Origin: Candidatus Woesearchaeota archaeon
GTDB taxonomy: Archaea; Nanobdellota; Nanobdellia; Woesearchaeales; JACPBV01
Assembly: GCA_016180135.1 (NCBI GenBank)
Contig: JACPBV010000004.1
Location: forward strand, 26,868-90,867
Reading direction: 5' to 3'
DNA length: 64,000 nucleotides
Positions within the stretch are counted from its first letter, which is position 1. Every line of letters begins with the position of its first letter. Both the position numbers and the translations under genes were made by a program. Positions 281-63,572 of this stretch are shown here, piece by piece. The notes beneath the pieces are model-generated. The model had not been told where the DNA came from. It made no database searches and saw nothing but the letters and a program-made list of their open reading frames with translations.

Positions 281-2002
281 ATGACTCCCATCATCCGCAT
301 AGGCAACGAGCTCCACCCCGTCTCCGGCATAGAAGGCTCCCCGAATGCCGAGATGATATTCCAGCACGCCCTGCTCAACGAAAACGAAAAGAGGGGGGAA
401 AGGGGGAAGGTCTCAGGAGAAAAGATCTTCAGCGATAAAAACCTTGGAGAGAAAACTGATAATTCAAAAATCCCCATGAAGAAATCACGGGAAGATGGAT
501 CCCAGGGAAATAAATCCCAATTTGAGTTTATAATGTTTTCAAGGCCGTTTTCCAAAGAGACAAAGCAGAAATGCCTCAATGATGCGTATGCCTCGGACAG
601 GGAGGTTTTGAACTTCCTCCTGTCCAGCGAAAGGTGGTATGGGCCGATGGTATCCAGCAAGGCCGAAGCCTGGGCTCTTATTCAAAACACCTATTTCATC
701 CCATGGACTTCTTTCGAAAGGCTTTGCTATTGGTTTGTAAAAAAATCATTTTTGAAAAGTTTTTTTTACGGGCTGCTGGCCATAAGCTACCATCGGAGAA
801 CTGCGTCAGCGATCCAAAAGCTCCGTCTCCAAGCTCCTATCATCCACCTGTATAACCGCCCGTTGGCATGGCTGATGAAACCGAAGTTGAAAGGCTGCAG
901 GCCGATTTTTGTTTTGGAGATGCAGAACAGCCATCTCGTGCAGAAGCATAGTATCTTCAAAGGCATCATTCAGAAATTGCTCAACAGTGCTGCTGCTCAG
1001 TTCAAAAAGATAATTTTTGTCAGCGATTTTCTCAGAGATGAGTATAGGGGAGAGTGTAAAGGAGAATGTAAAGGAGAATGTAGGGGAGAGTGTAAAGGAG
1101 AATGTAAGGGAGAGTGTAAGGAAGAGTGTAAAGGAGAATGTAAGGGAGAGTGTAAAACCGAATCTGCAGATGAAAAAATTGAAGAAAGCCGCCACAGCGA
1201 TTGCTCATGCTCACCTCATTTATCCCAATATTCCGTCGCATATAACGGAGTCTCAACAATACATCAGTATTTGGGAGCTCATCCTGCCTTATTGGCAGGA
1301 GATGGCCTGAGCCTCTCGCATTGGAAGTCCTCGCTGTTCCCGCAGTTGAAAAACCTCACTCCAGACACCAGCCTCCGCATCCTCTTCAGCGGAAGGATTG
1401 TGAGGGAAAAAGGCCTCCATATACTTTTGGATGCCCTCCGGCTTCTTGCTGATAGCCGGCAGAAAAGAAATTCGGTAAGGAAGAAGCAGATCCAGAAAAT
1501 AGAGCTGCGCATAGCCGGCTCGCCGTATTTTGGCAGAGAGGGAAGCTCCCCCTATGTTCGGGAAATCCTCCGGAAGATAAAGCAGCTTGAGCTGGAAAAT
1601 ATCAAGATAACCTTTATGGGATTCCTTGACAAATGCTCCCTCTCGAAGGAATACCTTGCGGCAGATATTCTCGTCGTTCCTTCATTATGGGACGAGCCCT
1701 TCGGCAACGTGGTTATCGAGGGGATGTATTTCAAATGCATTGTCGTTGCAGCAAGGAGTGGAGGGATTCCTGAGATACTAGAAAACAAAAAGACAGGATT
1801 CTTGGTCAGCAAAGGAAATGCTTCTGAGCTTTCCCGCCTGCTTGAAAATATCAGCCTGCGAACCCCAAGGGATGATGCCTCCCTTAAAGCCCTGGCCAGA
1901 AACGCAAAAAAGAGCGTTGAGCAGAAATTTCTGATGCAGCACCATTTCAGTGCCGTGATGGATGTTTACAGAGAGATTGTCAAAAATGAAACCTGGCGAT
2001 AG
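281..2002 (+). CDS. glycosyltransferase family 4 (GT-B, GT1-type C-terminal domain) with low-complexity insertions
   Basis: The C-terminal half has the classic GT4 pattern: RILFSGRIVREKGLHILLDAL ... ADILVVPSLWDEPFGNVVIEGMYFKCIVVAARSGGIPEIL..KTGFLV. The N-terminal start is uncertain. Confidence 0.8.
   Translation: MTPIIRIGNELHPVSGIEGSPNAEMIFQHALLNENEKRGERGKVSGEKIFSDKNLGEKTDNSKIPMKKSREDGSQGNKSQFEFIMFSRPFSKETKQKCLNDAYASDREVLNFLLSSERWYGPMVSSKAEAWALIQNTYFIPWTSFERLCYWFVKKSFLKSFFYGLLAISYHRRTASAIQKLRLQAPIIHLYNRPLAWLMKPKLKGCRPIFVLEMQNSHLVQKHSIFKGIIQKLLNSAAAQFKKIIFVSDFLRDEYRGECKGECKGECRGECKGECKGECKEECKGECKGECKTESADEKIEESRHSDCSCSPHLSQYSVAYNGVSTIHQYLGAHPALLAGDGLSLSHWKSSLFPQLKNLTPDTSLRILFSGRIVREKGLHILLDALRLLADSRQKRNSVRKKQIQKIELRIAGSPYFGREGSSPYVREILRKIKQLELENIKITFMGFLDKCSLSKEYLAADILVVPSLWDEPFGNVVIEGMYFKCIVVAARSGGIPEILENKKTGFLVSKGNASELSRLLENISLRTPRDDASLKALARNAKKSVEQKFLMQHHFSAVMDVYREIVKNETWR
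1047..1156 (+). repeat. in-frame 12-nt tandem repeat encoding (G-E-C-K/R)n inside the GT4 gene
   Basis: About 9 units of ggaga(a/g)tgtaa(a/g) translate to RGECKGECKGECRGECKGECKGECKEECKGECKGECK. They lie between the two Rossmann-like halves. Confidence 0.85.
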
Positions 2003-7761: not shown

Positions 7762-7845
7762 CTCCCGAAGTGCCGGGGCAATTTATAAACCTTTGTTTAA
7801 GCCAATATTCTGCAGGATATGCTCTCAGCTTTGGTAAGAAAACTC

Positions 7846-7905
7846 CTATGAATCACTTTTCCGCAGGAGCGGCTCTGCCGCCTAAGGTCAAAACTCAATT
7901 GACAT
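7846..7905. mobile_element. solo 5-prime-arm fragment of the family-B hairpin element
   Basis: tatgaat...ccgcaggagcggctctgccgcctaaggtcaaaactcaattgac matches the B 5-prime arm (ccggcaagagcggctctgccatcctaaggtcaaaactcaact). No matching 3-prime arm follows. Confidence 0.5.
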
Positions 7906-10794: not shown

Positions 10795-10828
10795 TATTTC
10801 CACGCCTTTATCATCCAGCTCCCGCCCC
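10795..10828. repeat. 34-bp perfect direct repeat, copy 1 (flanks the PIN/AbrB cassette)
   Basis: tatttccacgcctttatcatccagctcccgcccc is identical to 11553-11586. Confidence 0.9.
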
Positions 10829-11242
10829 TTTATCGTGCTCAATTCTTGAAAGAAATTCCGCAGGCGTCAGGATAGAAACTCCCTGGTATTGTTTTAGTTT
10901 GAGAAGGTGCCTGTCTCCAGTCACAATGAACTCTGCCTTTGCGGCAATTGCGCAGGACAGCACCTTGTCATCCTTAGGGTCTTCTTGGACAGCAATAACT
11001 TGGATGGTAGGTTCGATTATTGTTGAAATTGTTTTGAAAAGGCTTATCTGACGTTGGATAAACTCTTCAGGCACATCAAAGTCCCTTTTTTGGCTTTCTT
11101 CCATCTCCAAAAGCATCTCTGGTGAGGTAAAGCTGCTGATCTGCTGCTGGAGCGCAAGCCGGACAATGGCGTGGGGTTTTCCTAGCTCCCAAAAAATTGA
11201 AGAGATCAGGATATTGGTATCCAGCACAACCCTTTCAGGCAT
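10811..11242 (-). CDS. PIN-domain toxin (VapC-like)
   Basis: VVLDTNILISS (N-terminal acidic Asp) ... FIVTGDRHLLKL... matches the PIN_3-type pattern. It lies immediately downstream of an AbrB-type antitoxin. Confidence 0.8.
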   Translation of the reverse strand: MPERVVLDTNILISSIFWELGKPHAIVRLALQQQISSFTSPEMLLEMEESQKRDFDVPEEFIQRQISLFKTISTIIEPTIQVIAVQEDPKDDKVLSCAIAAKAEFIVTGDRHLLKLKQYQGVSILTPAEFLSRIEHDKGAGAG

Positions 11243-15657: not shown

Positions 15658-15690
15658 GATTTAGGGGCGGTTTAAAAGCTTTATCCTCTG

Positions 15691-15864
15691 GTATGTATTA
15701 AGCTCCGGCAAGAGCGGCTCTGCCATCCTAAGGTCAAAACTCAACTATCAAACTAAATCGCGCTCGTCGTGGGGGGATGCCCCCTCGGGGACACAGAGCC
15801 CTTGCCAAATCAATTGGGAGTTTTGAAGAGGGCAGAGCCGCTCCAAGGGGAGCTTAATACATAC
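15691..15864. mobile_element. family-B long-hairpin MITE-like element, copy B1 (174 nt)
   Basis: The 16-bp terminal inverted repeat is gtatgtattaagctcc / ggagcttaatacatac. Inner perfect stems are gagcggctctgcc/ggcagagccgctc (13 bp) and tcaaaactc/gagttttga (9 bp). The GC-rich core is ggggggatgccccctcggggacacagagcc. The flanking 8-mers match only imperfectly (atcctctg vs cttctgca). Confidence 0.7.
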
Positions 15865-15937
15865 CTTCTGCAGGCCTCCCCGAATTAAGTTCAGATATAC
15901 AATAAACCCGCCTCAAATCTCTATCTCACCCAAACGC

Positions 15938-20948: not shown

Positions 20949-21003
20949 AAGGAAAACCTGAGATGGGAAAAACTGAGAGTGTATTTAAAGATTTGTGTGT
21001 TTG

Positions 21004-21177
21004 GTATGAATTAAGCTCCGGCAAGAGCAGCTCTGCCATCCTAAAGTCAAAACTCCATCCAAAAAGACAGCCAGCCCGTTGCGGGGGGTTGTCCCTTACG
21101 GGGACGCAGGGCCATCGCCAGACTTATCGGGAGTTTTGAAGATGGCAGAGCCGCTCCGAGGGGAGCTTAATTTATAC
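21004..21177. mobile_element. family-B long-hairpin MITE-like element, copy B2 (174 nt)
   Basis: The inverted repeat is gtatgaattaagctcc / ggagcttaatttatac. The same 13-bp and 9-bp inner stems are present. The core is gcggggggttgtcccttacggggacgcagggcc. The flanking 8-mers tgtgtttg / ggtgtttg match 7 of 8. Confidence 0.75.
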
Positions 21178-21234
21178 GGTGTTTGAAGTGTTGAGAGCAG
21201 AACTTACGATATGGGCCTTTAGTTTACCTTAGAA

Positions 21235-23763: not shown

Positions 23764-23930
23764 GCGGCTCCGTTCAAAATATAGGTTAGCAGCCTAAAGT
23801 AAAAATCATTTGCCCTCTGAATCCAGCTGACAAGGGGGACGCCCCCAACGGGGAATGTCAGCAACTGAAAAATCACTTTGGGATTTTTAAGCTGCTAACC
23901 CGAGCGAAGCGAGATTTTGAACGGAGCCGC
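23764..23930. mobile_element. family-C long-hairpin MITE-like element (167 nt)
   Basis: Terminal inverted repeat gcggctccgttcaaaat / attttgaacggagccgc (17 bp). Inner stems are ggttagcagc/gctgctaacc and gctgaca/tgtcagc. The core is agggggacgcccccaacgggg. An 11-bp direct repeat gcaaaatcagc sits at 23755-23765 and 23929-23939. Confidence 0.7.
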
Positions 23931-24714: not shown

Positions 24715-24829
24715 GAAAATTTCAACAACCTCGGCGAGGCGAGGCTGGGGGTCGCCCCATCGGGGTAGCCGAGCAGGGCAAATTTCCAGAGGAAATTTGA
24801 CCGTCGAGCCATGTGTTGTTGAAATTTTC
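24715..24829 (+). repeat. family-A structured repeat, copy A1 (115 nt)
   Basis: A 15-bp closing stem gaaaatttcaacaac / gttgttgaaattttc encloses ctcggc...gtcgag, a GC hairpin (ggctg-ggggtcgccccatcgggg-tagcc) and the hairpin caaatttcc-aga-ggaaatttg. Confidence 0.75.
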
Positions 24830-24858
24830 GCGCATTGCACCTCATAAGAGGTGTCTTT

Positions 24859-24955
24859 AAATGCAAACATTTAATCATTCTCCTGCTAATCGGATTTTTT
24901 TTTTGAATGCAAATATTTAATGATTCTCTGGATGGTGGTGGCCGGATTTCGTTTA
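24859..24955 (+). repeat. degenerate family-D-like element (D3), adjacent to A1
   Basis: aaatgcaaacatttaatcattctc and gaatgcaaatatttaatgattctc resemble the D 5-prime end aaatgcaaatattcc. ggtggccggatttcgttt resembles the D 3-prime end ggtggtcggatttctttt. Confidence 0.35.
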
Positions 24956-24988
24956 ATCTTTCTATGCTAAATGCTTCTTCTACTTGCC

Positions 24989-26823: not shown

Positions 26824-26853
26824 TGTTGAGTCAGCATCTCCCTGCGGGCGGTT

Positions 26854-27003
26854 AAATGCAAATATTCCACCAGTCTTTGACTGGTGGTTGACGCTCGATT
26901 AGACGTTGGGAATATTTGCCTTCTCAGAAATCCGACCCGAGCGACCGAAGGGAGCGAGCAATCCCCCCCGTCTGTGACGGGGGGTGGTCGGATTTCTTTT
27001 GAA
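26854..27003 (+). repeat. family-D two-domain structured repeat, copy D1 (~150 nt)
   Basis: Domain 1 is gcaaatattcc/ggaatatttgc enclosing ccaccagtc-ttt-gactggtgg. Domain 2 is agaaatccgacc/ggtcggatttct enclosing cgagcgaccgaagggagcgagc and ccccccgtc-tgt-gacgggggg. Confidence 0.7.
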
Positions 27004-27628: not shown

Positions 27629-27688
27629 GCTGCTGAAATTTCAGCAATGTTTAAAAAGGTTCCTCTATTCGAAGAATAAGGAAAAATC

Positions 27689-27987
27689 GTATGTATTAAG
27701 CTCCGGCAAGAGCGGCTCTGCCATCCTAATGTCAAAAACTGTTGTTTTTGAGCATGCTCAGAAATCGTAACTATTATAATAAGATATGACGATTTCTGAC
27801 AGGTCAAAACTCAACTGTCTAACTGAATCACGCTCGTAGTGGGGGGATGCCCCCTCGGGGACACAGAGCCCCTGCCAAATCAGTCAAGAGTTTTGAAAAC
27901 CCTAAGAAGCGAAGTTTCGTGGGTGCCAATAATGCGCAAGCATTATTAAGCATGGCAGAGGCGCTCCAAGGGGAGCTTAATACATAC
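27689..27987. mobile_element. family-B element, copy B3 (299 nt), carrying two nested insertions
   Basis: Same 16-bp inverted repeat and core as B1. Perfect 8-bp flanking duplication gaaaaatc (27681-27688 and 27988-27995). Relative to B1 there are extra segments of about 70 nt in the 5-prime arm and about 55 nt in the 3-prime arm. Confidence 0.8.
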
Positions 27988-29078: not shown

Positions 29079-29230
29079 GAAAATTTCAACAACATCGGCG
29101 AGGCGAGGGAGGGCCGCCCTCCGTCCGCAGACCGGAACGCTGGATTATCCCTCCGTCCGCAGACCGGAACGCTGGATTATCCCTCCGTCCGCAGACCGGA
29201 ACGCTTTTTTTTCCCTCCGTCCGTTTTCTC
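29079..29230 (+). repeat. family-A element, copy A3: 5-prime half only, followed by tandem expansion
   Basis: It starts gaaaatttcaacaacatcggcgaggcgaggg as other A copies do, then runs into 32-nt tandem units. No gttgttgaaattttc 3-prime arm is present. Confidence 0.6.
29117..29223 (+). repeat. perfect 32-nt tandem repeat (ccctccgtccgcagaccggaacgctggattat), 2 full units plus 24-nt and 11-nt partial units
   Basis: Units read directly at 29117-29148, 29149-29180 and 29181-29204, then T8, then ccctccgtccg. Confidence 0.9.
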
Positions 29231-32627: not shown

Positions 32628-32791
32628 GTATTTGTTTAGCATCCTAAGATCGAAACGCTTCTGGGCTTACCGTTGGGTCCGTCGCGGGGGCCGCCCTCCT
32701 TCCCGAAGGGACAGGAACGTTTTTCCACCCCTACGGGGACGCAGGACATCCATATCTCCCGTCGAGCGTTTCGAAGATGCTAAACAAATAC
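32628..32791. mobile_element. family-F long-hairpin MITE-like element (164 nt), related to family B
   Basis: 16-bp perfect inverted repeat gtatttgtttagcatc / gatgctaaacaaatac. Perfect 8-bp flanking duplication gtttcttc (32620-32627, 32792-32799). The core is cacccctacggggacgcagg. Confidence 0.8.
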
Positions 32792-32861
32792 GTTTCTTCA
32801 GGAAAATCAGGAATTTCCCCTCAAAACAAAAAGCCCCAAACCCCCCAATCCGAAAAAAGAA

Positions 32862-38562: not shown

Positions 38563-38631
38563 GATACCCAAACAAGATACCTCAACAAGATACCCAAACA
38601 AGATACCTCAACAAGATACCCAAACAAGATA
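38563..38631 (+). repeat. 13-nt tandem array (gatacccaaacaa / gatacctcaacaa alternating, 5 units plus a partial) starting right after the ArsR stop codon
   Basis: Units read directly. The effective period is 26 nt, about 2.6 copies. Confidence 0.85.
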
Positions 38632-38722
38632 GATGAGTATGATGCACGAGTAATGCGGGAGGTAAGATAAGGTGTATCGGGGTTGCAGGACTGGAAAATA
38701 CAACTATTTTGGAGGAAAAAAC

Positions 38723-43017: not shown

Positions 43018-43065
43018 TCCAACTATATAAAGATTTCATTTTGGAGTATGGATTAAACTGTAAAA

Positions 43066-43184
43066 GAAAATCCCAACAACAAAGGGCTCGACGGTCAAAT
43101 TTTTCTCTGAGAAAAATTTGCCCTGCTCGGGCACCCCGATGGGGCGACCCCCGCCCTCGCCTCGCCGATGTTGTTGGGATTTTC
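43066..43184 (-). repeat. family-A structured repeat, copy A2 (119 nt, inverted orientation)
   Basis: The closing stem is gaaaatcccaacaac / gttgttgggattttc. It differs from other copies by three compensatory pairs. The inner modules are conserved in reverse complement. Confidence 0.75.
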
Positions 43185-43238
43185 CAAATGCAGTCTATTT
43201 TTTTCTTCGACGGAGCTTAATACCTGCATTTCAGGGTT

Positions 43239-45812: not shown

Positions 45813-45933
45813 GAAAATTTCAACAACATCGGCGAGGCGAGGGCGGGGGTTTGTCCCTTACGGGGTGCCCGAGCAGGGCAAAATTTCCACAGAGGAAATT
45901 TTGACCGTCGAGCCCTTTGTTGTTGAAATTTTC
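45813..45933 (+). repeat. family-A structured repeat, copy A4 (121 nt)
   Basis: Same closing stem as A1. The inner hairpins are gggcg-ggggtttgtcccttacgggg-tgccc and caaaatttcc-acaga-ggaaattttg. Confidence 0.75.
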
Positions 45934-46032
45934 GCACATTGCAACCTAAAACTGCAGTTATGGGGAAGTGCGTTGATTGGGGGACACAATAGGGATTTAC
46001 ATCAATCCCCTTTACAACACCATTCGAGTATT

Positions 46033-46180
46033 AAATGCAAATATTCCACCAGTCTCTGACTGGTGGTTGACTCTCGATTAGCCATTGGGAATATTTGCCT
46101 TCTCAGAAATCCGACCCGAGCGACCGAAGGGAGCGAGTAATCCCCCCGTCTGTGACGGGAGGTGGTCGGATTTCTTTTGA
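46033..46180 (+). repeat. family-D two-domain structured repeat, copy D2
   Basis: More than 90 percent identical by eye to D1 (26854-27003), with the same four stems. Confidence 0.7.
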
Positions 46181-46254
46181 ATAATTGCGGCAAATGTAGC
46201 ATAACTACTGCAATTATCTATATTTTTCTGATGTAGAAGTTTTATCCAATATCT

Positions 46255-47211: not shown

Positions 47212-47502
47212 TTGGCTTCAAAAGAAGGCATGGAGACGGATGTAGACAGAGTTCTTGCTAGTGTCAGGAAGAAGCGTTTGCTGATGGAAGTCGAGGTCAA
47301 GGGCCTCATCGAGAAGAAGGAAGAGGAAATTTCCATCCCCTTAAGCATTTTCTCGGAGAGATTAGGCATGCTTGAGTCTATCGTTCATTATCTCAGGGAT
47401 TCTCATGGGCTTTCTTTTACAGAGATTGCAGGGCATCTAAAGCGGGACTACAAGACAGTCTGGGCGACATATCAGCAGGCAAAGAAAAAGTATAAGCGAT
47501 GA
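47212..47502 (+). CDS. small helix-turn-helix protein (sigma-70 region-4 / LuxR-like HTH), translationally coupled to the giant ORF
   Basis: LGMLESIVHYLRDSHGLSFTEIAGHLKRDYKTVWATYQQAKKK looks like an HTH. The stop overlaps the giant-ORF ATG (ATGA at 47499-47502). The start may be TTG 47212 or ATG 47230. A TATA-like ctttataaac lies at 47181-47190. Confidence 0.55.
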   Translation: MASKEGMETDVDRVLASVRKKRLLMEVEVKGLIEKKEEEISIPLSIFSERLGMLESIVHYLRDSHGLSFTEIAGHLKRDYKTVWATYQQAKKKYKR

Positions 47503-50500
47503 AACAATCCAGCAAAGTTAAGGAAATCAGCGCAGGCATAAGGGAGCTCAGGCTCTCAGGGAAAAATGCCGATAATGCCAGAAAGAGCTATGCAAGGCTG
47601 CTGGAAGCCTTGCTTCAGGAAAAAGAAAAACTGCAGTCTCATCTCAGCAAAGGGATTCTATCAGAGCAGAACTATGATCAGATTCTCCAGGAAAATCTTG
47701 ACGGCAAAACCAGGATGCAATGGATTGCCTATTGTGAAAATATCCTTGGCAGCGCAGATTCCAAAAAACAGCAGTATCGCCGATGGGTCGGAGTTCTTGA
47801 GGACGACATTGGCCGGATTAAACGATCTTTCAGGAAGGGAAGCATCTCCCAGGAAGCATACCATCATCTCCTGAACCAGAAGATTGAGGGAAAAACCAGG
47901 GAAGGATGGATTGTATCCGCAAAAATGGCGTTGTATGGTCTGGAAGAGGGTGAATCCCTGGCGGGCGCTCAGGGAATTTTAAGCCGCAGCGCATCGTCAG
48001 TAATCAGAGCATCAAAATCGCTGCTAGAAGAGAAAAAGGAACTCCTCGTTAACACCGCCCCTATAATATTGATGCTCTTGCTTCTCAGCCTCTCAGCTTT
48101 TTTTATCAGCCCGGCGCACACCGGATTTGCAGTCATAAGCATAGAGAATGGATTTGAGGATTCCTTAAACCTCTCCCTCAACGGGTCATCCTCATTCCTC
48201 TGGGCCCCGGCCAGCCACGGAATGATAACGAACATTGCAGTCAGCGGAAGGCTTTCAAAAGGTGCCGGAGCAAAAATCTACCTCGAAAAGGCCGGCAGGC
48301 TTTATCTGCTCCTTGATACTGAAGCTGGCTTGAAGACAGAAACAGTTTTGCAGGAAATTCCCGGCATTGCTGCTGGAATCAGTTCCCTCCCGCAGCAAAA
48401 GATCCCCCTCACCGGAGAGATTGAAAACCTATCTGTTGCCCTTATCGGCTCAGGGCCAGTTCAATCAGCAAATGATATATTTAAATTCGGCTTGAAGCAA
48501 AGGGCAGGATTAGACAACAGCTCTTCAGTCCCTGATGAGAACTTCTGCGCACTATGGAAAGTGAACAATGTTTCGGCAGAGTGCTATGGAAATGCTGACT
48601 GCTGCAGTTTTGCGGGCCTCGAAGCCAGTGGCTCCTGGAATGATACGTTCTACCTGTATTCCGGAAGATTCAGCGCAAAGAAAGACAATCTCATTGAGCC
48701 AATCCTTATCTCTTACGATGTCAATCTGAGCATCCCGAAGTCCGATATTAGGATTTCCTCCGCAGTTGCGGAAGCCCATTTTGCGGATGAGCTGGAGAGA
48801 TTCAGCCTTGCATGCATGGAAACGTGCAGCGGCCTGGAGTTTAACGAATCGCGATACTCTCTTGTTGTCTCTTTGGCAATTGGCTCGCTCATCCTTGACA
48901 GCATCTCTTACAAAATGGCCGAAAGCTATAACGTATCAGAAAATTCCCCTCTGCTCCAAAAGAACATCTCTAATGTGTCGCTCTACCAAAACGAAAACAT
49001 CACGTTAAGCCTTAATGATTTCTTTGCCGATGCAGACTCCGATGCGCTGGTATACTATGCTTATCCTGCAGAAAATATCAGCTTTTCTTTTTACCAGGGG
49101 AACATCACCGTCATCCCTGATAAGGATTTCCTCGGCAAAGCATCAACATTTTTTACTGCCTCAGACGGCTTTTTTAATGCCACTTCAGGAATAATTGATA
49201 TTGAGGTTGCTGAAAAGCCGCTCCTCCCGGCTCAGGTATCGGTCACCCAAACTCCCATAAAACCCAAGGTAAGGGTCAATGAGCCGGTGAAATGGGTTAC
49301 AAGAGTTAATTCCACCAGGAAAGTCATAAACCTCACGATGAGCCTGGCGCACGGGGCTGAGAACATCTCCGTCAGAGAATTGACTCAGGGCAGCATTGAT
49401 ACCTCAAGAGTCATTGATACATCCAAAGTGATTGATACATCCAAAGTGATTGATACCTCAAGAGTCATTGATACTGCTGGATTCATGAATCTTAAATCAG
49501 TATTTGTCAGCGAGCAGGGCCAGACTAAAAACCTCTCGCTCTATAATGCCGAAAAGTATTTGGCCAGGCTTGAATCCAGGGAGGAGATGCTTATTGAAAC
49601 CAAAAGGGGAAAGATTAAAAATGACCCGACGGAAATTGAAGCTCTGAAATCTCTTAACACCCAATTGCGTGATGTTGAAAACGAGAAAAACCGGATTACA
49701 GGATTTGTTGTTGCCCAAAGAGGGCAGAAAGGCATTATAACCCGATTTTTTGAATGGCTCATCCAATCAGACCTCGTCGGATTTGCCATCCTCAACGCCC
49801 CATTAGCTCCAATCACCACTCCCTCCACTAATCTCATCCCCACCCCCACAACTAATCACGCCACTAACTCCTTCCCCACTCCCTCCACTAATCTCATCCC
49901 CACCCCCACAACTAATCTTGAAGAGCCTGGCGAAAATGCCCATCCCCCAGTATTGACGATTGCCGAGGGGATTAAAGAAGCCGAGATTACTTATTTCACG
50001 GAAGCTCCGGTTGCCGAGGAATTCAATCTGTCAGAGTCAGGCAAGCGCATTATCATCAGCTCAGACATCCACTATGAAAACATTACGGCTTTCACTTACC
50101 TCCCCGGCGAATATGCCTCTTCAGGCATCCATCTGTATTGGATGAAAAACGGCTCAAGGGAAGAGGTAAATTTCACAGCATTTGATGAAAACAATAACGG
50201 CAGGATTGATTATATCGAATGGATCATCCCCTCGTTGTCAAACCAGACATATGATCTCTCCCTCACCATCATCACACTGAAGAGTTATCCTATCATTGGA
50301 AGAAACTGGACGACAGAGTTTAATGTTTCCGGCACAGCAAACCTCACGATCACTGCAGTCAACAGCACAAGTTTTGGCCAGGTCTACGTTGACAATTTCT
50401 CCTCGGAAGACGACCTCTATCTCAGGGAACTGAAATGCGGTAATCTCACCGTATGGAACAACGGCACAAATTATTCATCAGGCAATGTTTTCTTCGTCCT

Positions 50501-53500
50501 CAGCAATGGCACCGAGGCAGCCTGGAGCGAAACATTCGGAAACAGCCTTCCAGTAACTTCCTTAAAAGTTGTTGACTTCAGCTGCAGCAGTTCAGCGTAT
50601 CACATTGTCAAGGTTGAAACCCACGGGGACCATGTCCAGGAATTCACTTTTGGAAATATCACAAAATATGCTTACAATCATGCAGGGGGGACAGCATGCG
50701 GTTCAGACGGCCTCGGCTCAACCTGCCAGGGAGGGGGAAATGCCAGCCTTGACACGTGCATTGATACTGACAGCTCTAACACGCTTGATGGGTCGGATTT
50801 CTGCCATGGCGCTAACCAATGCCTTGATTCCCATATCGGCGCTTCCTGCAACTATGCCACCGGCCCGACATCAGGGCTCTGCGCCTACAACGGTGCAACC
50901 TCTGCAACCTGCTCAAACCTCGTAATCTCCGGGGAGTATGGCACAGGCATAACTGGCGGTTCTTCAGTAAACTTCCACAGCGGCAATGAAAATTCATCAT
51001 GCTCCCCTGCATCAGAGATGATGGTCTGCAATATCTCTACGGGATACAACCCTCAGGGCGGTGATCTCTGCCTCGACTCATCATGCACGGATCCTGCAAG
51101 CGGGATTGTTTCCCTTAACTGCATCGATCAATCCTGCTCAACGTCGGATGTCAGTGATGCGGCAGTATTCGGCGACTGTAATGCCACGGGCGGAGGCTGG
51201 GCCTGTGACAGCAGCCTTGGCTCATCAGGGTTTGCCCAGGACGGGATTTGCTCAGTGACCTCTGGATTTAACACCTATGGGTGCGCAGCTTCCGGATATA
51301 TCTGCAATGCTACCTCGGGCCCTTTTGCCGGAACTATCTTCAAAAATGGCTGCGGTGTTGGCATGGAGTGTTCAGACAACGATCCCTGCGACTCCTCATT
51401 GACAGACGGCAATTTCAATAAGGCAGCAGGCACATGCTCGGGCACAGACTGTGTCGGTGTCGCAGTTGCCAGCATCTATGCATTCAACCACTCTAAAACC
51501 TCGCCGACAAGCCTCTACCTCGTGAACGGCTCAGTGAACTCCTCCGTCATCAACGGAACAAATATAACCCATAATCAGACCTTAAACTTTACCCACCCGA
51601 CGTTTGGCCTTCGGCTCCAGATTATCGCAAACTTCTCAAGCTGGGATGTTGACATTTCCAACCTTACCATTGACGCAAACAACTTCAGCACTGCCGTGAA
51701 TTGGACATTTGTTGACCAGAGAGCTGTCCCCAAGAATCACACGCTCTACGTCCCCAACACCCTCCAGCTTGGCGTGTATGCATGCGGAACAGCAAACAGC
51801 ACAGGGGAAGTTTTCCCAAAATGCCCGAACAGGACGGTCTGGACGGACTCGGAATTGGGGGCAGGCTCGGTCGTCGTAAGGAATGGGCTCGTAGCGTATG
51901 AGCTTTCTAATCGTTACGTTGTCTCCAACCTTTCGGGCTCCGGAATAGGTCAGGGTGTTGCAGAATGCGGAGCGCTAAACCGTGAGAACGTCACCTATAA
52001 CCTCCTTCAGTCAGTCACTGATACTGACACCTGTTTCACAATCTCCGCCAATAATGTTACGCTTGACTGCAACAATTTTTCCATCACTTATGCAACTGCA
52101 GCTAACGGTAATGGCATCACCGTCAGCAATGTAAACAGGACAACGATCAGGAACTGCACCTTCATCAAGACCTCCGGTCAGGGCTCCTCATATGCCGTTC
52201 AGTTGTCTGGAGCAAACAATGCATCCATCAGCAACAGCTCATTCACTGCTGCTTCTTTAATTTCTTACCCGATTTACCTGACTTCATCCTCAAGGACAAA
52301 CCTGATTCAGAACAACAACATCACCGCTTCAGGAGGGAGCCCCGGAATCTATATTGATTCTTCCTCGGGACAGAACATCATCCTTAACAACAACATTACG
52401 ACTGTCGCAGCCTCGGCGCCTGCTGTTTACATCACTGGCTCTTCCAACAACACCCTTGACGGGAACAATATCACCACCGCCGGAAAAGCATCGTTCGGCA
52501 TACAGCTTGATGCCTCATCTTTTAACACAACTATAATCTTTAACAACATTACGACCGAAGGGAACTCATCTCACGCAGTCTATATCCTTGCAGCCTCAAA
52601 CTTTACCAAAGTATTGAAAAATGTAATCATCACAAAAGGATGGACATCATCCGGTATCATGATTTCTGATGCGTCATACAATATGGCCGAGAACAACTCC
52701 CTGGATATCCTCAACAGCACTAACGCAGCCTTTTACATCAACCAAAGCTCGCTTGCAAACAGCTTTTCAAAAAACAATGTGACTTTCTCAAGAGGGGACG
52801 CAATCCATATCATCTATGACCCGAAGCCGACCTCAGATGGGGGGCCTGTCCCGAGGTTCAATAATTTCTCGAACAACACGTTCTCCAATATATCCGGCTT
52901 TGACCTGATGCTCACCCCTATGATAAGTGCTCCCGGAGTTTCCCAGATAAACCTTACCACCCTGATTGACCAGCCCATAAAGAGATACAACTTCACCAAT
53001 TATGGCGGCTTGTTTGCCATAAGGTCATCCGAATTTGGGGAAATCGCTTTTTTCACCGTCATCAACGGCTCAGGAACAAATTTCAGCAATGATATTATCA
53101 TCAAAAATAATTCTATCACAGTTAATGCTTCAGCAGGGAATGGAATATTCAACAGCTCAGCAAACCTTACATTCTTTAACCTAGGGGACAGGGGCTTTGC
53201 CAATCCCGCCATTCTTTACAACGGTGGAACGTGTGATTTAACCACCTCCCCGCTCTGCCTGAACTTTACCGGCCTTACTGCTGCGACGGTCATCTTGAAT
53301 GTTACTCATTTCAGCAATTACAGCATCGGGGGTCAGGTTGATTTAAGCACACCTACTGTCTCTGTCATCTCGCCAACGCACAGGAACTACACGCTAAGGC
53401 AGATCGACTTCAACATTTCCCTGAATGAGGCAGGGAGCGCATGCAAAATGGCATTGGACAGCGAGGGAAATATCACGATGAGCGCTGTAAACAGCTCTTA

Positions 53501-62465: not shown

Positions 62466-62554
62466 GGAAATCAAGGTTTCATCCCAAAAAGTCCGAGAAT
62501 AGGGTGCACAATTCCCCATAGGGCATTTCTTAAAAGTAATTATCGTTTTTTTTC

Positions 62555-62603
62555 AATGCAACCATTCCATCCGGTCTTTGACGGGGGGGTCGGATTATTT
62601 TGA
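62555..62603 (+). repeat. internally deleted family-D derivative (D4), abutting A5
   Basis: aatgcaaccattccatccggtctttgacgggggggtcggattattttga joins the D 5-prime end (aatgcaaatattccaccagtctttgac) directly to the D 3-prime end (gacggggggtggtcggatttcttttga). Confidence 0.5.
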
Positions 62604-62608
62604 AAAAA

Positions 62609-62844
62609 GAAAATTTCAACAACATTGGCGAGGCGAGGGTGGGGCCGCCCTCCGTTGCGAAGCAACCGGAACGCAGGATTATTCCTCCGTCCGCAGACCG
62701 GAACGCTTTTCCCCCCCATCGGGGTGCCCGAGCAGGGCAAAATTTTCGCGGAGAAACCTCCGAGCGGTAGCGAGCGAGGCACAAAAAACCCTAAAGGGTT
62801 TTTTCGTGAATTTGACCGTCGAGCCCTTCGTTGTTGAAATTTTC
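62609..62844 (+). repeat. family-A structured repeat, copy A5 (236 nt, expanded)
   Basis: It has the canonical closing stem. Two copies of the ccctcc-hairpin-ggaacgc submodule are inserted in the GC hairpin, and the AT hairpin is enlarged. Confidence 0.7.
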
Positions 62845-62935: not shown

Positions 62936-63214
62936 GGCGGGAAGGCTAGGCCGGGATGCTAGTGCCACCCTGTCACCTGAAACGCACTTCAGCAGGGGCC
63001 GAAGCTTTGCAAGCGGCATTTTGCTTTGCTGGTGGTCTTTGCCCGTACGTCGAAGCTCTGTCCTTTGGGATTGCCTGTTCAGTGAACCTGGTCAGGCCCG
63101 GAAGGGAGCAGCCATAAGCTGGATGGATGATGCTCAAGGGGTAGCGGAGTGGAGGAAAGGCAGAGGCAGCCATCATCAGGGTAGATTGTCCATTGCGGGG
63201 CATGCTTTCCCGCT
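62936..63214 (+). ncRNA. ffs: signal recognition particle RNA (archaeal-type 7S / SRP RNA)
   Basis: The helix-8 motif ggtcaggcccggaagggagcagccataag lies at 63089-63118. The terminal helix gcgggaagg (62937-62945) pairs with ctttcccgc (63205-63213), including one G-U. A length of about 280 nt fits the archaeal long form. The ends are approximate. Confidence 0.8.
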
Positions 63215-63239: not shown

Positions 63240-63572
63240 CTATAACTCAAAAATCAGTTTAAGTTTATGATCAACATCTTCTATTTTGCTTTCTTTCAGC
63301 GAACCAATTTTATAGGAGATTATAGATTTTTCTGCGGTGAAAATTCTATTCGGCCGAATCCTGCTTTCAACCTGCAGTCTTCCAGCCTTAAAGTCGGAGT
63401 CATTGAGGACAACTGAGTATTCATCTGTCCTCGCTTCGCTGGTAATCTGGCAAAGAACAACATCGTCACCTGTAAGCGCCGCAATAATCAAAGCTGGCCT
63501 TTTCTTTGAGCCGCTTAAGTCGGAGAATGGAAATGGTAGGACTACAACTTCCCCCTTTACAAATGTGCCCAT
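63240..63572 (-). CDS. mazF: MazF/PemK-family type II toxin (endoribonuclease)
   Basis: GEVVVLPFPFSDLSGSKKRPALIIAALTGDDVVLCQITS is the PemK signature. Confidence 0.85.
   Translation of the reverse strand: MGTFVKGEVVVLPFPFSDLSGSKKRPALIIAALTGDDVVLCQITSEARTDEYSVVLNDSDFKAGRLQVESRIRPNRIFTAEKSIISYKIGSLKESKIEDVDHKLKLIFEL

What the first reader, a model, noticed from the sequence alone, without database searches (positions are those of the whole stretch)
24715..24829. Family A: ~115-nt Y-shaped structured repeat with compensatory changes in three helices
There are five copies: 24715-24829, 29079-29230 (partial), 43066-43184 (inverted), 45813-45933 and 62609-62844 (expanded).

Hand folding gives these helices:
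- P1, 15 bp: gaaaatttcaacaac / gttgttgaaattttc.
- P2: (c)tcggc / gtcga(g), with a G-U pair.
- A GC arm: ggctg...tagcc.
- An AT hairpin.

Compensatory changes between copies:
- P1 in A2 is gaaaatcccaacaac / gttgttgggattttc (ttt/aaa becomes ccc/ggg).
- The GC arm is ggctg/tagcc in A1 and gggcg/tgccc in A2 and A4.
- The AT hairpin is caaatttcc-aga-ggaaatttg in A1, caaaatttcc-acaga-ggaaattttg in A4 and caaatttttc-tcaga-gaaaaatttg in A2.

Other observations:
- No flanking duplication is evident.
- The G-U in P2 would be an A-C mismatch on the other strand. This weakly suggests an RNA read in the orientation given, which matches the flanking genes for 4 of 5 copies.
- The inner GGGG-UCG-CCCC-AUC-GGGG segment can form two mutually exclusive hairpins.
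Basis: partly seen in the sequence, partly recalled or inferred. Interest (0 to 1): 0.8.

Follow-up and report, generated by a model that had tools for sequence, protein, structure and literature searches.

The report
Y-shaped dispersed repeat in Woesearchaeota
A real, previously undescribed ~90-240-nt repeat of DPANN (Woesearchaeota) archaea keeps a Y-shaped fold while its sequence changes; it behaves like a small mobile DNA element that leaves no target duplication, rather than like a proven RNA gene.

Summary
Five Family A copies sit where stated, all intergenic, in a Candidatus Woesearchaeota chromosome. Six more copies were found in related MAGs and metagenomes. The fold is conserved: 90% of cells pair versus 42-52% in slid controls, and 19 pairs change on both sides versus 6-8. 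P1 is perfectly Watson-Crick in 128 of 128 pairs across six different sequences. The junction is nearly invariant and carries two tandem G.A motifs (GGCGAG/CGAGCC and GCGAGG/CCGAGC). Insertions fall only in loops or junctions. No Rfam family matches.

The copies behave as dispersed, non-autonomous DNA. They lie at non-orthologous sites in a relative whose XPD protein is only 59% identical, yet they are 82-90% identical. The A3 site is empty or differently occupied in relatives. One copy is truncated, assemblies break at the copies, and one copy is nested in another element's shell. Co-resident families B, C and D share the same G5-N3-C4/5-N3-G4 core and show clean 7-8-bp target duplications. 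Family A shows none in 11 copies.

Best reading: a fold-defined mobile element that makes no target duplication and is mobilised in trans. RNA function is unproven: both strands fold equally well against shuffles, and three copies lie between an oligo-T tract and the next TATA box.

The parts
24715..24829 (+). Family A copy A1 (115 nt, complete, compact)
   Evidence: Sequence. CM R1 scores 122 bits, E = 1.7e-28. Lies between two minus-strand ORFs.
24715..24729 (+). A1 P1 5' arm (GAAAATTTCAACAAC); pairs with 24815-24829
   Evidence: 15-nt arms, 100% complementary. P1 is Watson-Crick in 128 of 128 pairs over 10 copies.
24733..24747 (+). A1 conserved G-rich 5' strand: P2 5' (GGCGAG, 24733-24738) and P3 5' (GCGAGGCTG, 24739-24747)
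   Evidence: GGCGAGGCGAGG is invariant in 9 of 9 aligned copies.
24748..24765 (+). A1 core GGGG-TCG-CCCC-ATC-GGGG; the motif is shared with families B, C and D
   Evidence: The core pattern occurs 7 times in the window against 0.35 expected.
24766..24774 (+). A1 P3 3' strand (TAGCCGAGC)
   Evidence: Pairs with 24739-24747 with a tandem G.A and one G.U. Both-side changes at columns 32/57 and 33/56.
24776..24802 (+). A1 P4 hairpin (GGGC-AAATTTCC-AGA-GGAAATTT-GACC) with a conserved G.A
   Evidence: Six P4 pairs change on both sides.
24805..24810 (+). A1 P2 3' strand (CGAGCC)
   Evidence: Pairs with GGCGAG in my register. In L010b the equivalent helix is a perfect GGCGCGG/CCGCGCC.
24815..24829 (+). 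A1 P1 3' arm (GTTGTTGAAATTTTC)
29079..29230 (+). Family A copy A2, 3'-truncated. The 5' 36 nt (P1 5', P2 5', P3 5') is followed by a 32-nt module repeated 3.3 times (29117-29223). The core hairpin, P4 and the 3' arms are missing.
   Evidence: nhmmer matches only model positions 1-36. TRF gives period 32, 3.3 copies. Logan contigs break here.
43066..43184 (-). Family A copy A3 (119 nt; P1 variant GAAAATCCC/GGGATTTTC)
   Evidence: CM R1 scores 119 bits. The orthologous XPD-PCMT spacer lacks it in relatives.
43046..43223 (-). Composite unit: A3 inside a Family-B-like shell (GTATTAAGCTCCG... / ...AGTTTAATCCATAC)
   Evidence: The same composite lies at an unrelated locus in MAG JACPBU01 (L004). Similarity extends about 45 nt upstream and about 22 nt downstream of P1.
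45813..45933 (+). Family A copy A4 (121 nt; core variant GGGGTTTGTCCCTTACGGGG)
   Evidence: CM R1 scores 110 bits. A Logan contig ends about 20 nt inside it.
62609..62844 (+). Family A copy A5 (236 nt), expanded by modules in the core loop and in the P4 loop
   Evidence: CM R1 scores 67.8 bits over the full model. Lies between the 4988-aa ORF and the SRP RNA.

Best explanation
Family A is a non-autonomous, dispersed DNA repeat of Woesearchaeota. It is defined by the fold of one strand rather than by conserved termini.

The fold:
- P1 is a terminal clamp of 9-15 perfect pairs. Its sequence is free to change.
- P2 (GGC-GA-G / C-GA-GCC) and P3 (GC-GA-GGGC / GCCC-GA-GC) each carry a tandem G.A. 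They share a continuous 5' strand, so they can stack.
- P3 is capped by the G5-N3-C4/5-N3-G4 core.
- P4 (GGGC-hairpin-GACC) branches off between them.

Proposed mechanism (inferred): the unit is copied as a discrete piece bounded by P1 and inserts without a target-site duplication. The MITE families B, C and D in the same genome make 7-8-bp duplications. Family A is therefore probably mobilised in trans by a different, structure-recognising enzyme acting on a folded single strand. An HUH/Y1-type single-strand transposase is the leading candidate. The invariant junction would be the recognition surface, and P1 would bring the two ends together. Helices covary because only copies that keep the fold are propagated. 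Insertions survive only in loops and junctions.

Shown: repetition, intergenic location, fold conservation, absence of a target duplication, non-orthologous and empty sites, nesting, and the lack of any encoded protein.

Inferred: the enzyme, the single-stranded DNA substrate, and current activity.

Transcribed copies would also form a very stable RNA hairpin, but I regard that as a side effect.
For: Repetition and spread. There are five copies in the window and six in other Woesearchaeota or metagenome contigs. CM R1 finds all 11 with E = 1e-28 to 1e-7 and nothing else in 191 kb.

Host. A Candidatus Woesearchaeota contig of 117.8 kb carrying an archaeal SRP RNA.

Mobility:
- The L004 copy is flanked by DHBP synthase and a methyltransferase, against PCMT and XPD in the window.
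- The true orthologous XPD-PCMT spacer holds a different palindrome in JACPBU01 and is only 46 nt in L021/L022.
- Copies are 82-90% identical between genomes whose XPD is 59% identical at the protein level and about 68% at the DNA level.
- A2 is a truncated fragment.
- Short-read contigs end at A2, A3, A4 and A5.
- A3 and L004 are the same composite inside a B-like shell, and they differ by a clean 65-nt module indel in the core.

Non-autonomy. About 40 window ORFs have Pfam assignments and none is a transposase, integrase or RT.

Target duplication. There are 0 in 11 Family A copies. Six of seven B, C and D copies have an exact 7-8-bp duplication abutting the terminal repeats.

Fold. 90% of cells are paired against 42-52% in slid controls, and 19 pairs change on both sides against 6-8. 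P1 is Watson-Crick in 128 of 128 pairs across 6 sequences. Insertions occur only in the core loop, the P4 loop or the junction.

Context:
- A Woesearchaeal genome is reported among the most MITE-dense archaea, at 105 per Mb (PMC11602168).
- IS200/IS605 is the commonest archaeal IS family (PMC13343696).
- A Y1_Tnp gene lies in relative L024.
Against: - No mobilising gene was found, and the Y1 IS in L024 shows no similarity to the element.
- No conserved target sequence flanks the copies.
- No strain-level empty site was found, because all same-species assemblies break at the copies. Current activity is therefore unproven.
- Sequence conservation at or above that of protein genes, a GC-rich copy (60% GC) in a 33% GC genome, conserved tandem G.A and G.U on one strand only, and 5 of 6 sense orientations between co-directional genes could equally indicate a selected RNA.
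- IS200/IS605 elements do not normally have their two ends paired in a long terminal helix.
Confidence: 0.55

Rival explanations
1. Family A is primarily a structured RNA: a cis-acting UTR or intergenic element (stability, 3'-end formation, processing) or a protein-binding RNA whose twin tandem-G.A junction is the ligand site. It has been multiplied through the genome, and the RNA fold is what selection maintains at each locus.
For: - Covarying helices around a nearly invariant junction.
- Non-canonical tandem G.A in the stable C-GA-G context, and a conserved G.U closing P3, both on one strand only. On the other strand these would be C.U and A.C.
- The G.A of P4 becomes A.G in L006 and A-U in L023.
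- Insertions occur only in loops and junctions.
- The L023 copy is 60% GC in a 33% GC genome.
- Conservation is at or above that of protein genes.
- 5 of 6 copies between co-directional genes are in sense orientation.
- The reverse strand scores 23 bits against 119 with the CM.
Against: - z-scores are equal on both strands, as RNA and as DNA.
- There are no wobble pairs in 128 P1 pairs, and the hairpins have triloops or near-zero loops, as in DNA palindromes.
- A2, A4 and A5 lie after a T8, T5 and T8 tract and before the next TATA box.
- A1 is antisense, and A2 is a truncated fragment.
- There is no conserved promoter and no Rfam hit.
- The same core sits in true MITEs (B, C, D) oriented against their flanking genes.
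- The orthologous site is empty in relatives.
Confidence: 0.25
2. Family A is an ordinary cut-and-paste MITE. P1 is a terminal inverted repeat bound by a DDE transposase, and the target duplications have simply decayed or been misplaced.
For: - Size, lack of coding capacity, intergenic location, a 9-15-bp terminal inverted repeat and multiple copies.
- It co-resides with bona fide MITEs (B, C, D) that share its core.
- A3 and L004 travel inside a B-like shell.
Against: - No target duplication in 0 of 11 copies, even allowing boundary offsets of up to 6 nt. Equally conserved B, C and D copies show exact 7-8-bp duplications in 6 of 7.
- The outermost termini are the most variable part (GAAAAT, AAGATT, GGCAAC, GAAAAACC, CACTCC) while the interior is invariant. 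This is the reverse of transposase-bound terminal repeats.
- No outer shells surround A1, A4 or A5.
Confidence: 0.1
3. The copies are folded single-strand recombination sites (integron attC-like or another tyrosine-recombinase site) rather than transposons.
For: - Structure is conserved more than sequence, and the features are strand-specific.
- Core variants and modules are exchanged between otherwise identical shells.
- Several elements lie between genes of a glycosylation cluster.
- A tyrosine recombinase gene lies about 450 nt from the L023 copy.
Against: - The inner P1 arms, CAACAAC/GTTGTTG, do not fit the attC R''/R' consensus RYYYAAC/GTTRRRY (sequence; the consensus is from my own knowledge).
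- Copies flank housekeeping genes and the SRP RNA, are 1-17 kb apart, and are not in cassette arrays.
- There is no integrase in the window.
- The recombinase near L023 is syntenic in L024, which has no copy.
Confidence: 0.04

Closest known systems
REPIN/REP elements mobilised by RAYT (Y1/HUH) transposases in bacteria (PMC3116915, PMC3733652)
   Same: Short, non-coding, intergenic and multi-copy. Defined by a hairpin fold of one strand. No target duplication. Long persistence with high sequence conservation. REPs are also found nested inside larger palindromes.
   Different: An archaeal host. No consistent GTAG or CGTC tag. Not a doublet of two inverted REPs but a three-way junction with two tandem G.A motifs and a separate AT hairpin. 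No RAYT-like gene identified.
Prokaryotic MITEs, including the co-resident families B, C and D of this window and the archaeal MITE census (PMC11602168)
   Same: 90-240 nt, terminal inverted repeat, no ORF, intergenic, dispersed. Shares the central G5-N3-C4/5-N3-G4 core with B, C and D.
   Different: No target-site duplication (0 of 11 against 6 of 7 in B, C and D). The outer termini are variable and the interior is invariant.
BOX elements of Streptococcus pneumoniae (boxA-boxB(n)-boxC) (own knowledge)
   Same: A modular repeat with a variable number of internal modules between complementary ends. Predicted to form a very stable structure. Intergenic.
   Different: Unrelated sequence and architecture. 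Bacterial. The modules here sit in hairpin loops, and one of them (32 nt) is itself tandemly amplified.
Small dispersed repeats nested in hairpins of cyanobacterial repeats (Elhai et al. 2008, Genome Res; own knowledge)
   Same: Very small modules found inserted, without a target duplication, in the loops of other palindromic repeats. This gives mosaic, nested elements.
   Different: A different domain of life and different sequences. Here the nested unit (core with or without module) is shared by four shell families.
r(GGCGAGCC)2 tandem sheared G.A duplex (SantaLucia & Turner 1993; own knowledge)
   Same: P2 (5'-GGCGAG / 5'-CGAGCC) is literally six of the eight positions of this duplex. P3 repeats the C-GA-G context.
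   Different: That is a thermodynamic motif, not a family. The same Y-GA-R context also stabilises tandem G.A in DNA, so it does not decide between RNA and DNA.
Integron attC sites
   Same: A folded single strand, with structure conserved more than sequence, and a variable terminal structure.
   Different: The R-box consensus is absent, and there is no cassette array and no IntI nearby.

Membership tests
MITE (DDE-transposase-dependent miniature inverted-repeat element) | Terminal inverted repeats | tested here: met
   P1 is 9-15 bp and 100% complementary in all copies. The outermost bases differ between subfamilies.
MITE (DDE-transposase-dependent miniature inverted-repeat element) | Target-site duplication flanking the element | tested here: not met
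   0 of 11 copies, allowing boundary offsets of up to 6 nt. Families B, C and D in the same sequences give exact 7-8-bp duplications.
MITE (DDE-transposase-dependent miniature inverted-repeat element) | Small, non-coding, multi-copy, dispersed | tested here: met
   85-236 nt. 5 copies in 64 kb plus 6 elsewhere, all intergenic.
MITE (DDE-transposase-dependent miniature inverted-repeat element) | A parent IS with matching terminal repeats | not testable with these tools
   None in the window or in about 190 kb of related loci. The whole genomes could not be scanned.
REP/REPIN-RAYT system | Conserved GTAG (or CGTC) tag next to an imperfect palindrome | tested here: not met
   No tag lies 5' of the core or P4 on either strand of Family A. 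CGTC spans the P4/P2 linker only. Tags appear inconsistently in family B.
REP/REPIN-RAYT system | Unit made of two inverted REPs | tested here: not met
   P3/core and P4 are unrelated hairpins. The fold is a three-way junction.
REP/REPIN-RAYT system | Single-copy Y1 (RAYT) gene flanked by the repeats | not testable with these tools
   Only a Y1_Tnp gene in a distant relative (L024), and its flanks are unrelated.
Any Rfam 15 RNA family | Covariance-model match at or near the gathering score | tested here: not met
   The only gathering hit in the window is the SRP RNA. Permissive scans of A1, A3, A4, L010a and L010b give only E >= 0.25 chance hits elsewhere.
Kink-turn (L7Ae-binding) RNA motif | Three-nucleotide bulge immediately 5' of tandem G.A/A.G, flanked by C and NC stems | tested here: not met
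   Both tandem G.A steps are embedded in continuous helices. In either P2 register at least one Watson-Crick pair separates the junction from the G.A pairs (sequence inspection).
Integron attC | R''/R' boxes RYYYAAC / GTTRRRY, and location at cassette boundaries next to intI | tested here: not met
   The arms are CAACAAC/GTTGTTG. Copies flank housekeeping genes and the SRP RNA. No integrase in the window.
IS200/IS605-derived non-autonomous element (PATE-like) | No terminal repeat and no target duplication; subterminal hairpins; insertion 3' of a fixed 4-5-nt target | tested here: inconclusive
   No target duplication and hairpins are present. However, the ends are paired in a long helix and no fixed flanking tetranucleotide is seen. 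Only the window subfamily shares a 3' tail, GCRCAWTGCA.

The most novel reading that the evidence does not exclude
Family A is a genuine structured nucleic-acid ligand. Its Y-shaped three-way junction, with twin tandem G.A motifs, is recognised as RNA (a DPANN-specific dispersed riboregulatory or protein-binding RNA) or as folded single-stranded DNA by an undescribed archaeal mobilisation enzyme. The G5-N3-C4/5-N3-G4 core shared by four shell families would be a common insertion or recombination hotspot. That would make it a new class of fold-defined elements in archaea that make no target duplication.
Probability: 0.22. Interest if true: 0.75.

Novelty: new variant of a known kind. Interest (0 to 1): 0.5.

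Why it matters
DPANN archaea have tiny genomes, yet this one carries at least 11 palindromic elements in 64 kb. The same families recur in a relative whose proteins are far more diverged than the repeats.

Family A stands out because its interior junction is conserved while its ends are free to change, and because it inserts without a target duplication. Classical MITEs that share its core sit alongside it and do make such duplications. This gives a natural side-by-side contrast of two mobilisation modes.

If the partner enzyme or an RNA role is found, it would give the first handle on how such elements spread in uncultivated symbiotic archaea. More practically, the covariance model explains where Woesearchaeota assemblies fragment and could help repair them.

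Tried and rejected
1. Spurious-ORF trick. I concatenated six-frame translations of three copies as a protein query to fish out copies in other assemblies. 8000 candidates were collected and none was significant.
2. A viral contig scan with the 21-nt pattern gave 0 hits.
3. The genome and metagenome pattern scans also returned chance matches in GC-rich bacteria and one likely eukaryotic contig. I discarded these after reading them.
4. L004 was first taken as the orthologue of the A3 site because of the shared flanks. I rejected this because the neighbouring genes are unrelated. The shared flank is a B-like shell.
5. Top-strand MFE advantage as evidence for RNA. I rejected this because the shuffle z-scores are equal on both strands.
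6. GTAG/CGTC REP tags are inconsistent across families.
7. Kink-turn and attC readings fail their defining features.
8. Outer shells around A1, A4 and A5: none is convincing.
9. Target duplications with shifted boundaries or after the 3' tail gave only A-rich partial matches.
10. Strain-level empty sites: all same-species Logan contigs break at the copies. One look-up found no record.
11. The window's left edge could not be extended.
12. The supplementary MITE sequences of PMC11602168 are not held.
13. Orientation bias: 10 of 11 core-bearing elements are on the + strand in the window. This is not reproduced in L005, where A and D are on - and B is on +. I leave it unexplained.

Full report
**Observation.**
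- A1 (24715-24829, +), A3 (43066-43184, -) and A4 (45813-45933, +) are compact copies of 115-121 nt.
- A5 (62609-62844, +) is expanded to 236 nt.
- A2 (29079-29230, +) is a dead fragment. It keeps only the first 36 nt, followed by 3.3 tandem copies of a 32-nt unit.

The 15-nt P1 arm is far above chance: 17 matches against 3.3 expected, with 0 of 100 shuffles reaching that number. All copies lie between ORFs.

**Host and relatives.** The window carries an archaeal SRP RNA at 62939-63211. Its XPD-like helicase is identical to an NCBI protein from a Candidatus Woesearchaeota contig of 117.8 kb.

One exact-pattern scan each of the species-representative genomes and of the metagenomes found genuine relatives only in Woesearchaeota MAGs and environmental contigs:
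- L004 and L005, from MAG JACPBU01
- L006
- L010, which holds two copies
- L014

A further diverged copy (L023) lies in a 33% GC relative. Viral contigs gave nothing.

**The fold.** Using diverged copies, I segmented ten elements by hand.
- P1 is perfectly Watson-Crick in 128 of 128 pairs. It has six different sequences: GAAAATTTCAACAAC, GAAAATCCC..., AAGATTTTC..., GGCAACAAC, CACTCCCTCCC and, in L023, GAAAAACCGCCAACA.
- P4 has many sequences but always the frame GGGC...GACC with one G.A. That pair becomes A.G in L006 and A-U in L023.
- The interior is nearly invariant: GGCGAGGCGAGG, CCGAG-A-GGGC and GACCGTCGAGCC.

I read the interior as two helices, each with a tandem G.A in a C-GA-G context: P2 = GGC-GA-G / C-GA-GCC and P3 = GC-GA-GGGC / GCCC-GA-GC. 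They share a continuous 5' strand, and P4 branches from the 3' strand.

On the 7-sequence alignment, 90.1% of cells pair against 42-52% when partners are slid. 19 pairs change on both sides against 6-8, and 0 of 500 shuffles reach the observed values. P2 never varies, so counting cannot decide its register.

Two natural variants favour my register:
- L010b replaces the G.A steps with a perfect 7-bp helix, GGCGCGG/CCGCGCC.
- L014 carries a 53-nt insertion exactly between the GU linker and C-AA-GCC.

All insertions lie in the core loop, the P4 loop or that junction.

Of the two mutually exclusive core hairpins, only CCCC-N3-GGGG shows a compensated change (CUCC/GGAG in L005).

A covariance model built from seven copies finds all eleven, E = 1e-28 to 1e-7, including four it was not trained on. 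It finds nothing else in 191 kb.

**Not a known RNA.** Rfam 15 gives no hit at gathering thresholds. Permissive scans of five copies also give none.

**Genomic behaviour.**
- The nearest genome, JACPBU01, has XPD 59% identical at the protein level (about 68% at the DNA level) and PCMT 87% (82.5%). Intergenic DNA does not align.
- Its Family A copies are nevertheless 82-90% identical to the window's, and they lie at unrelated loci.
- In the true orthologue of the A3 site, the XPD-PCMT spacer holds a different ~115-nt palindrome in JACPBU01. It is only 46 nt long in L021/L022. A3 is therefore an insertion.
- A3 and the L004 copy share about 45 nt upstream and about 22 nt downstream of P1. These flanks resemble Family B termini, so a composite B-shell[A] was copied as a unit. 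The two copies differ by a clean 65-nt module present or absent exactly at GGGG|CCC in the core.
- Short-read contigs of the same species end at A2, A3, A4 and A5.
- About 40 window ORFs have Pfam assignments: a glycosylation cluster, XPD, PCMT, an ATPase and toxin-antitoxin genes. None is a transposase, integrase or RT.

**The neighbours give the key contrast.** The core G5-N3-C4/5-N3-G4 occurs seven times in the window against 0.35 expected. It lies at the centre of three other nested-palindrome families:
- B: 15689-15865, 21002-21178 and 27687-27987
- C: 23764-23930
- D: 32628-32792

Families A, B and D all recur in JACPBU01. The 4.5-kb contig L005 holds one copy of each.

Families B, C and D show exact 7-8-bp target duplications abutting their terminal repeats in six of seven copies: GAAAAATC, GTGTTTG, CACTGCC, AAAATCA, GTTTCTTC and GAAAAATG. 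Family A shows none in eleven copies, even with shifted boundaries. A1, A4 and A5 have no outer shell. Family A therefore fails a defining MITE feature that its neighbours meet. Its variable termini and invariant interior are also the reverse of a transposase-bound terminal repeat.

**RNA or DNA?**

For a single-strand reading on the given strand:
- The tandem G.A and the G.U closing P3 are conserved on one strand only.
- The CM scores the reverse strand at 23 bits against 119.
- The L023 copy stays at 60% GC in a 33% GC genome.

Against a required RNA role:
- Shuffle z-scores are equal on both strands, as RNA and as DNA. The top strand's lower MFE in 11 of 11 copies therefore reflects its G-richness.
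- P1 has no wobble pairs.
- The hairpins have triloops or almost no loop.
- A2, A4 and A5 lie after a T8, T5 and T8 tract and before the next TATA box. Oligo-T as an archaeal terminator is my own knowledge.
- A1 is antisense to its neighbours, and there is no conserved promoter.

Orientation between co-directional genes is 5 of 6 sense, which is not significant.

**Conclusion.** The best-supported reading (0.55) is a fold-defined, non-autonomous mobile DNA repeat that makes no target duplication. It would be mobilised in trans by a structure-recognising enzyme acting on a folded single strand.
- An HUH/Y1 transposase is the leading candidate, though unproven. IS200/IS605 is the commonest archaeal IS family (PMC13343696). 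A Y1 gene is present in a relative, but its flanks are unrelated.
- A selected structured RNA remains a serious rival (0.25).
- A classical MITE (0.10) and an attC-like site (0.04) are unlikely.
- A census paper already notes that a Woesearchaeal genome is among the most MITE-dense archaea (PMC11602168). This family, its fold and its contrast with the co-resident MITEs are not described in anything I could search.

Noticed in passing
window 15689-15865, 21002-21178, 27687-27987 (also L005:1680-1905): Family B is a ~175-nt nested palindrome with terminal repeat GTATGTATTAAGCTCC. It has the same G5-N3-C5-N3-G4 core and 7-8-bp target duplications (GTGTTTG, GAAAAATC, CACTGCC), so it is a bona fide MITE. 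B3 is expanded by two inserted modules. A B fragment lies at 7838-7898.
   Followed up: partly
window 23764-23930: Family C is a single nested palindrome (GCGGCTCCGTTCAAAAT... / GGTTAGCAGCCTAAA...) around the core GGGGGACGCCCCCAACGGGG. It is flanked by the 7-bp duplication AAAATCA.
   Followed up: partly
window 32628-32792 (also L005:2754-2919): Family D has terminal repeat GTATTTGTTTAGCATC, related to B's, and 8-bp duplications (GTTTCTTC; GAAAAATG in L005). Its core holds a module related to the 32-nt unit seen in A2, A5 and L004, so the module travels with the core and not with the shell.
   Followed up: partly
window 26852-27003, 46031-46181, 24857-24960, 62540-62608: Another repeat ('F') starts with TTRAATGCAAAYATT and ends with GGTCGGATTTCTTTTGAA. 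Two 152-nt copies are 95% identical, and short ~50-nt versions lie next to A1, A4 and A5. The motif resembles an archaeal BRE/TATA region, so these could be mobile promoters.
   Followed up: no
window, all core-bearing elements; 10 of 11 core-bearing elements (A1, A2, A4, A5, B1-3, C1, D1 and others) point the same way on the + strand, regardless of gene direction. GC skew is negative across the whole window. This could reflect a replication-linked insertion bias, but L005 shows mixed orientations.
   Followed up: partly
L018:2040-2165: The orthologous XPD-PCMT spacer in MAG JACPBU01 is occupied by a different ~115-nt palindrome (AAAAATGCCGAAC...GTTCGGCATTTTT), preceded by a smaller one (CTTCAAAG...CTTTGAAG). 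The same spacer has therefore been colonised independently in two lineages.
   Followed up: no
window 47499-62465: A single 4988-aa ORF with internal tandem and dispersed repeats (for example 49395-49474 with an 18-nt period, 49813-49917, and 56961/58500/59067). It is presumably a giant surface protein typical of DPANN archaea.
   Followed up: no
window 1028-1183; 38563-38640: Short-period tandem repeats: a 12-nt period inside the glycosyltransferase ORF 281-2002, and a 13-nt period, GATACCYMAACAA, near 38.6 kb.
   Followed up: no
window 62939-63211: Archaeal SRP RNA (155.6 bits), 95 nt downstream of A5, with a TATA-like TTTAAAA about 25 nt upstream of its start.
   Followed up: yes
L024:12657-13124; L023:1768-2643: A Y1 (IS200-type) transposase gene lies in one relative. 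A tyrosine recombinase gene lies about 450 nt from the L023 Family A copy, and that recombinase is syntenic in L024, which lacks the element.
   Followed up: partly
window 63240-63572 and L019: A MazE/PemK toxin-antitoxin pair sits at the right edge of the window. A second pair and a PIN-domain gene (10811-11242) lie nearby.
   Followed up: no
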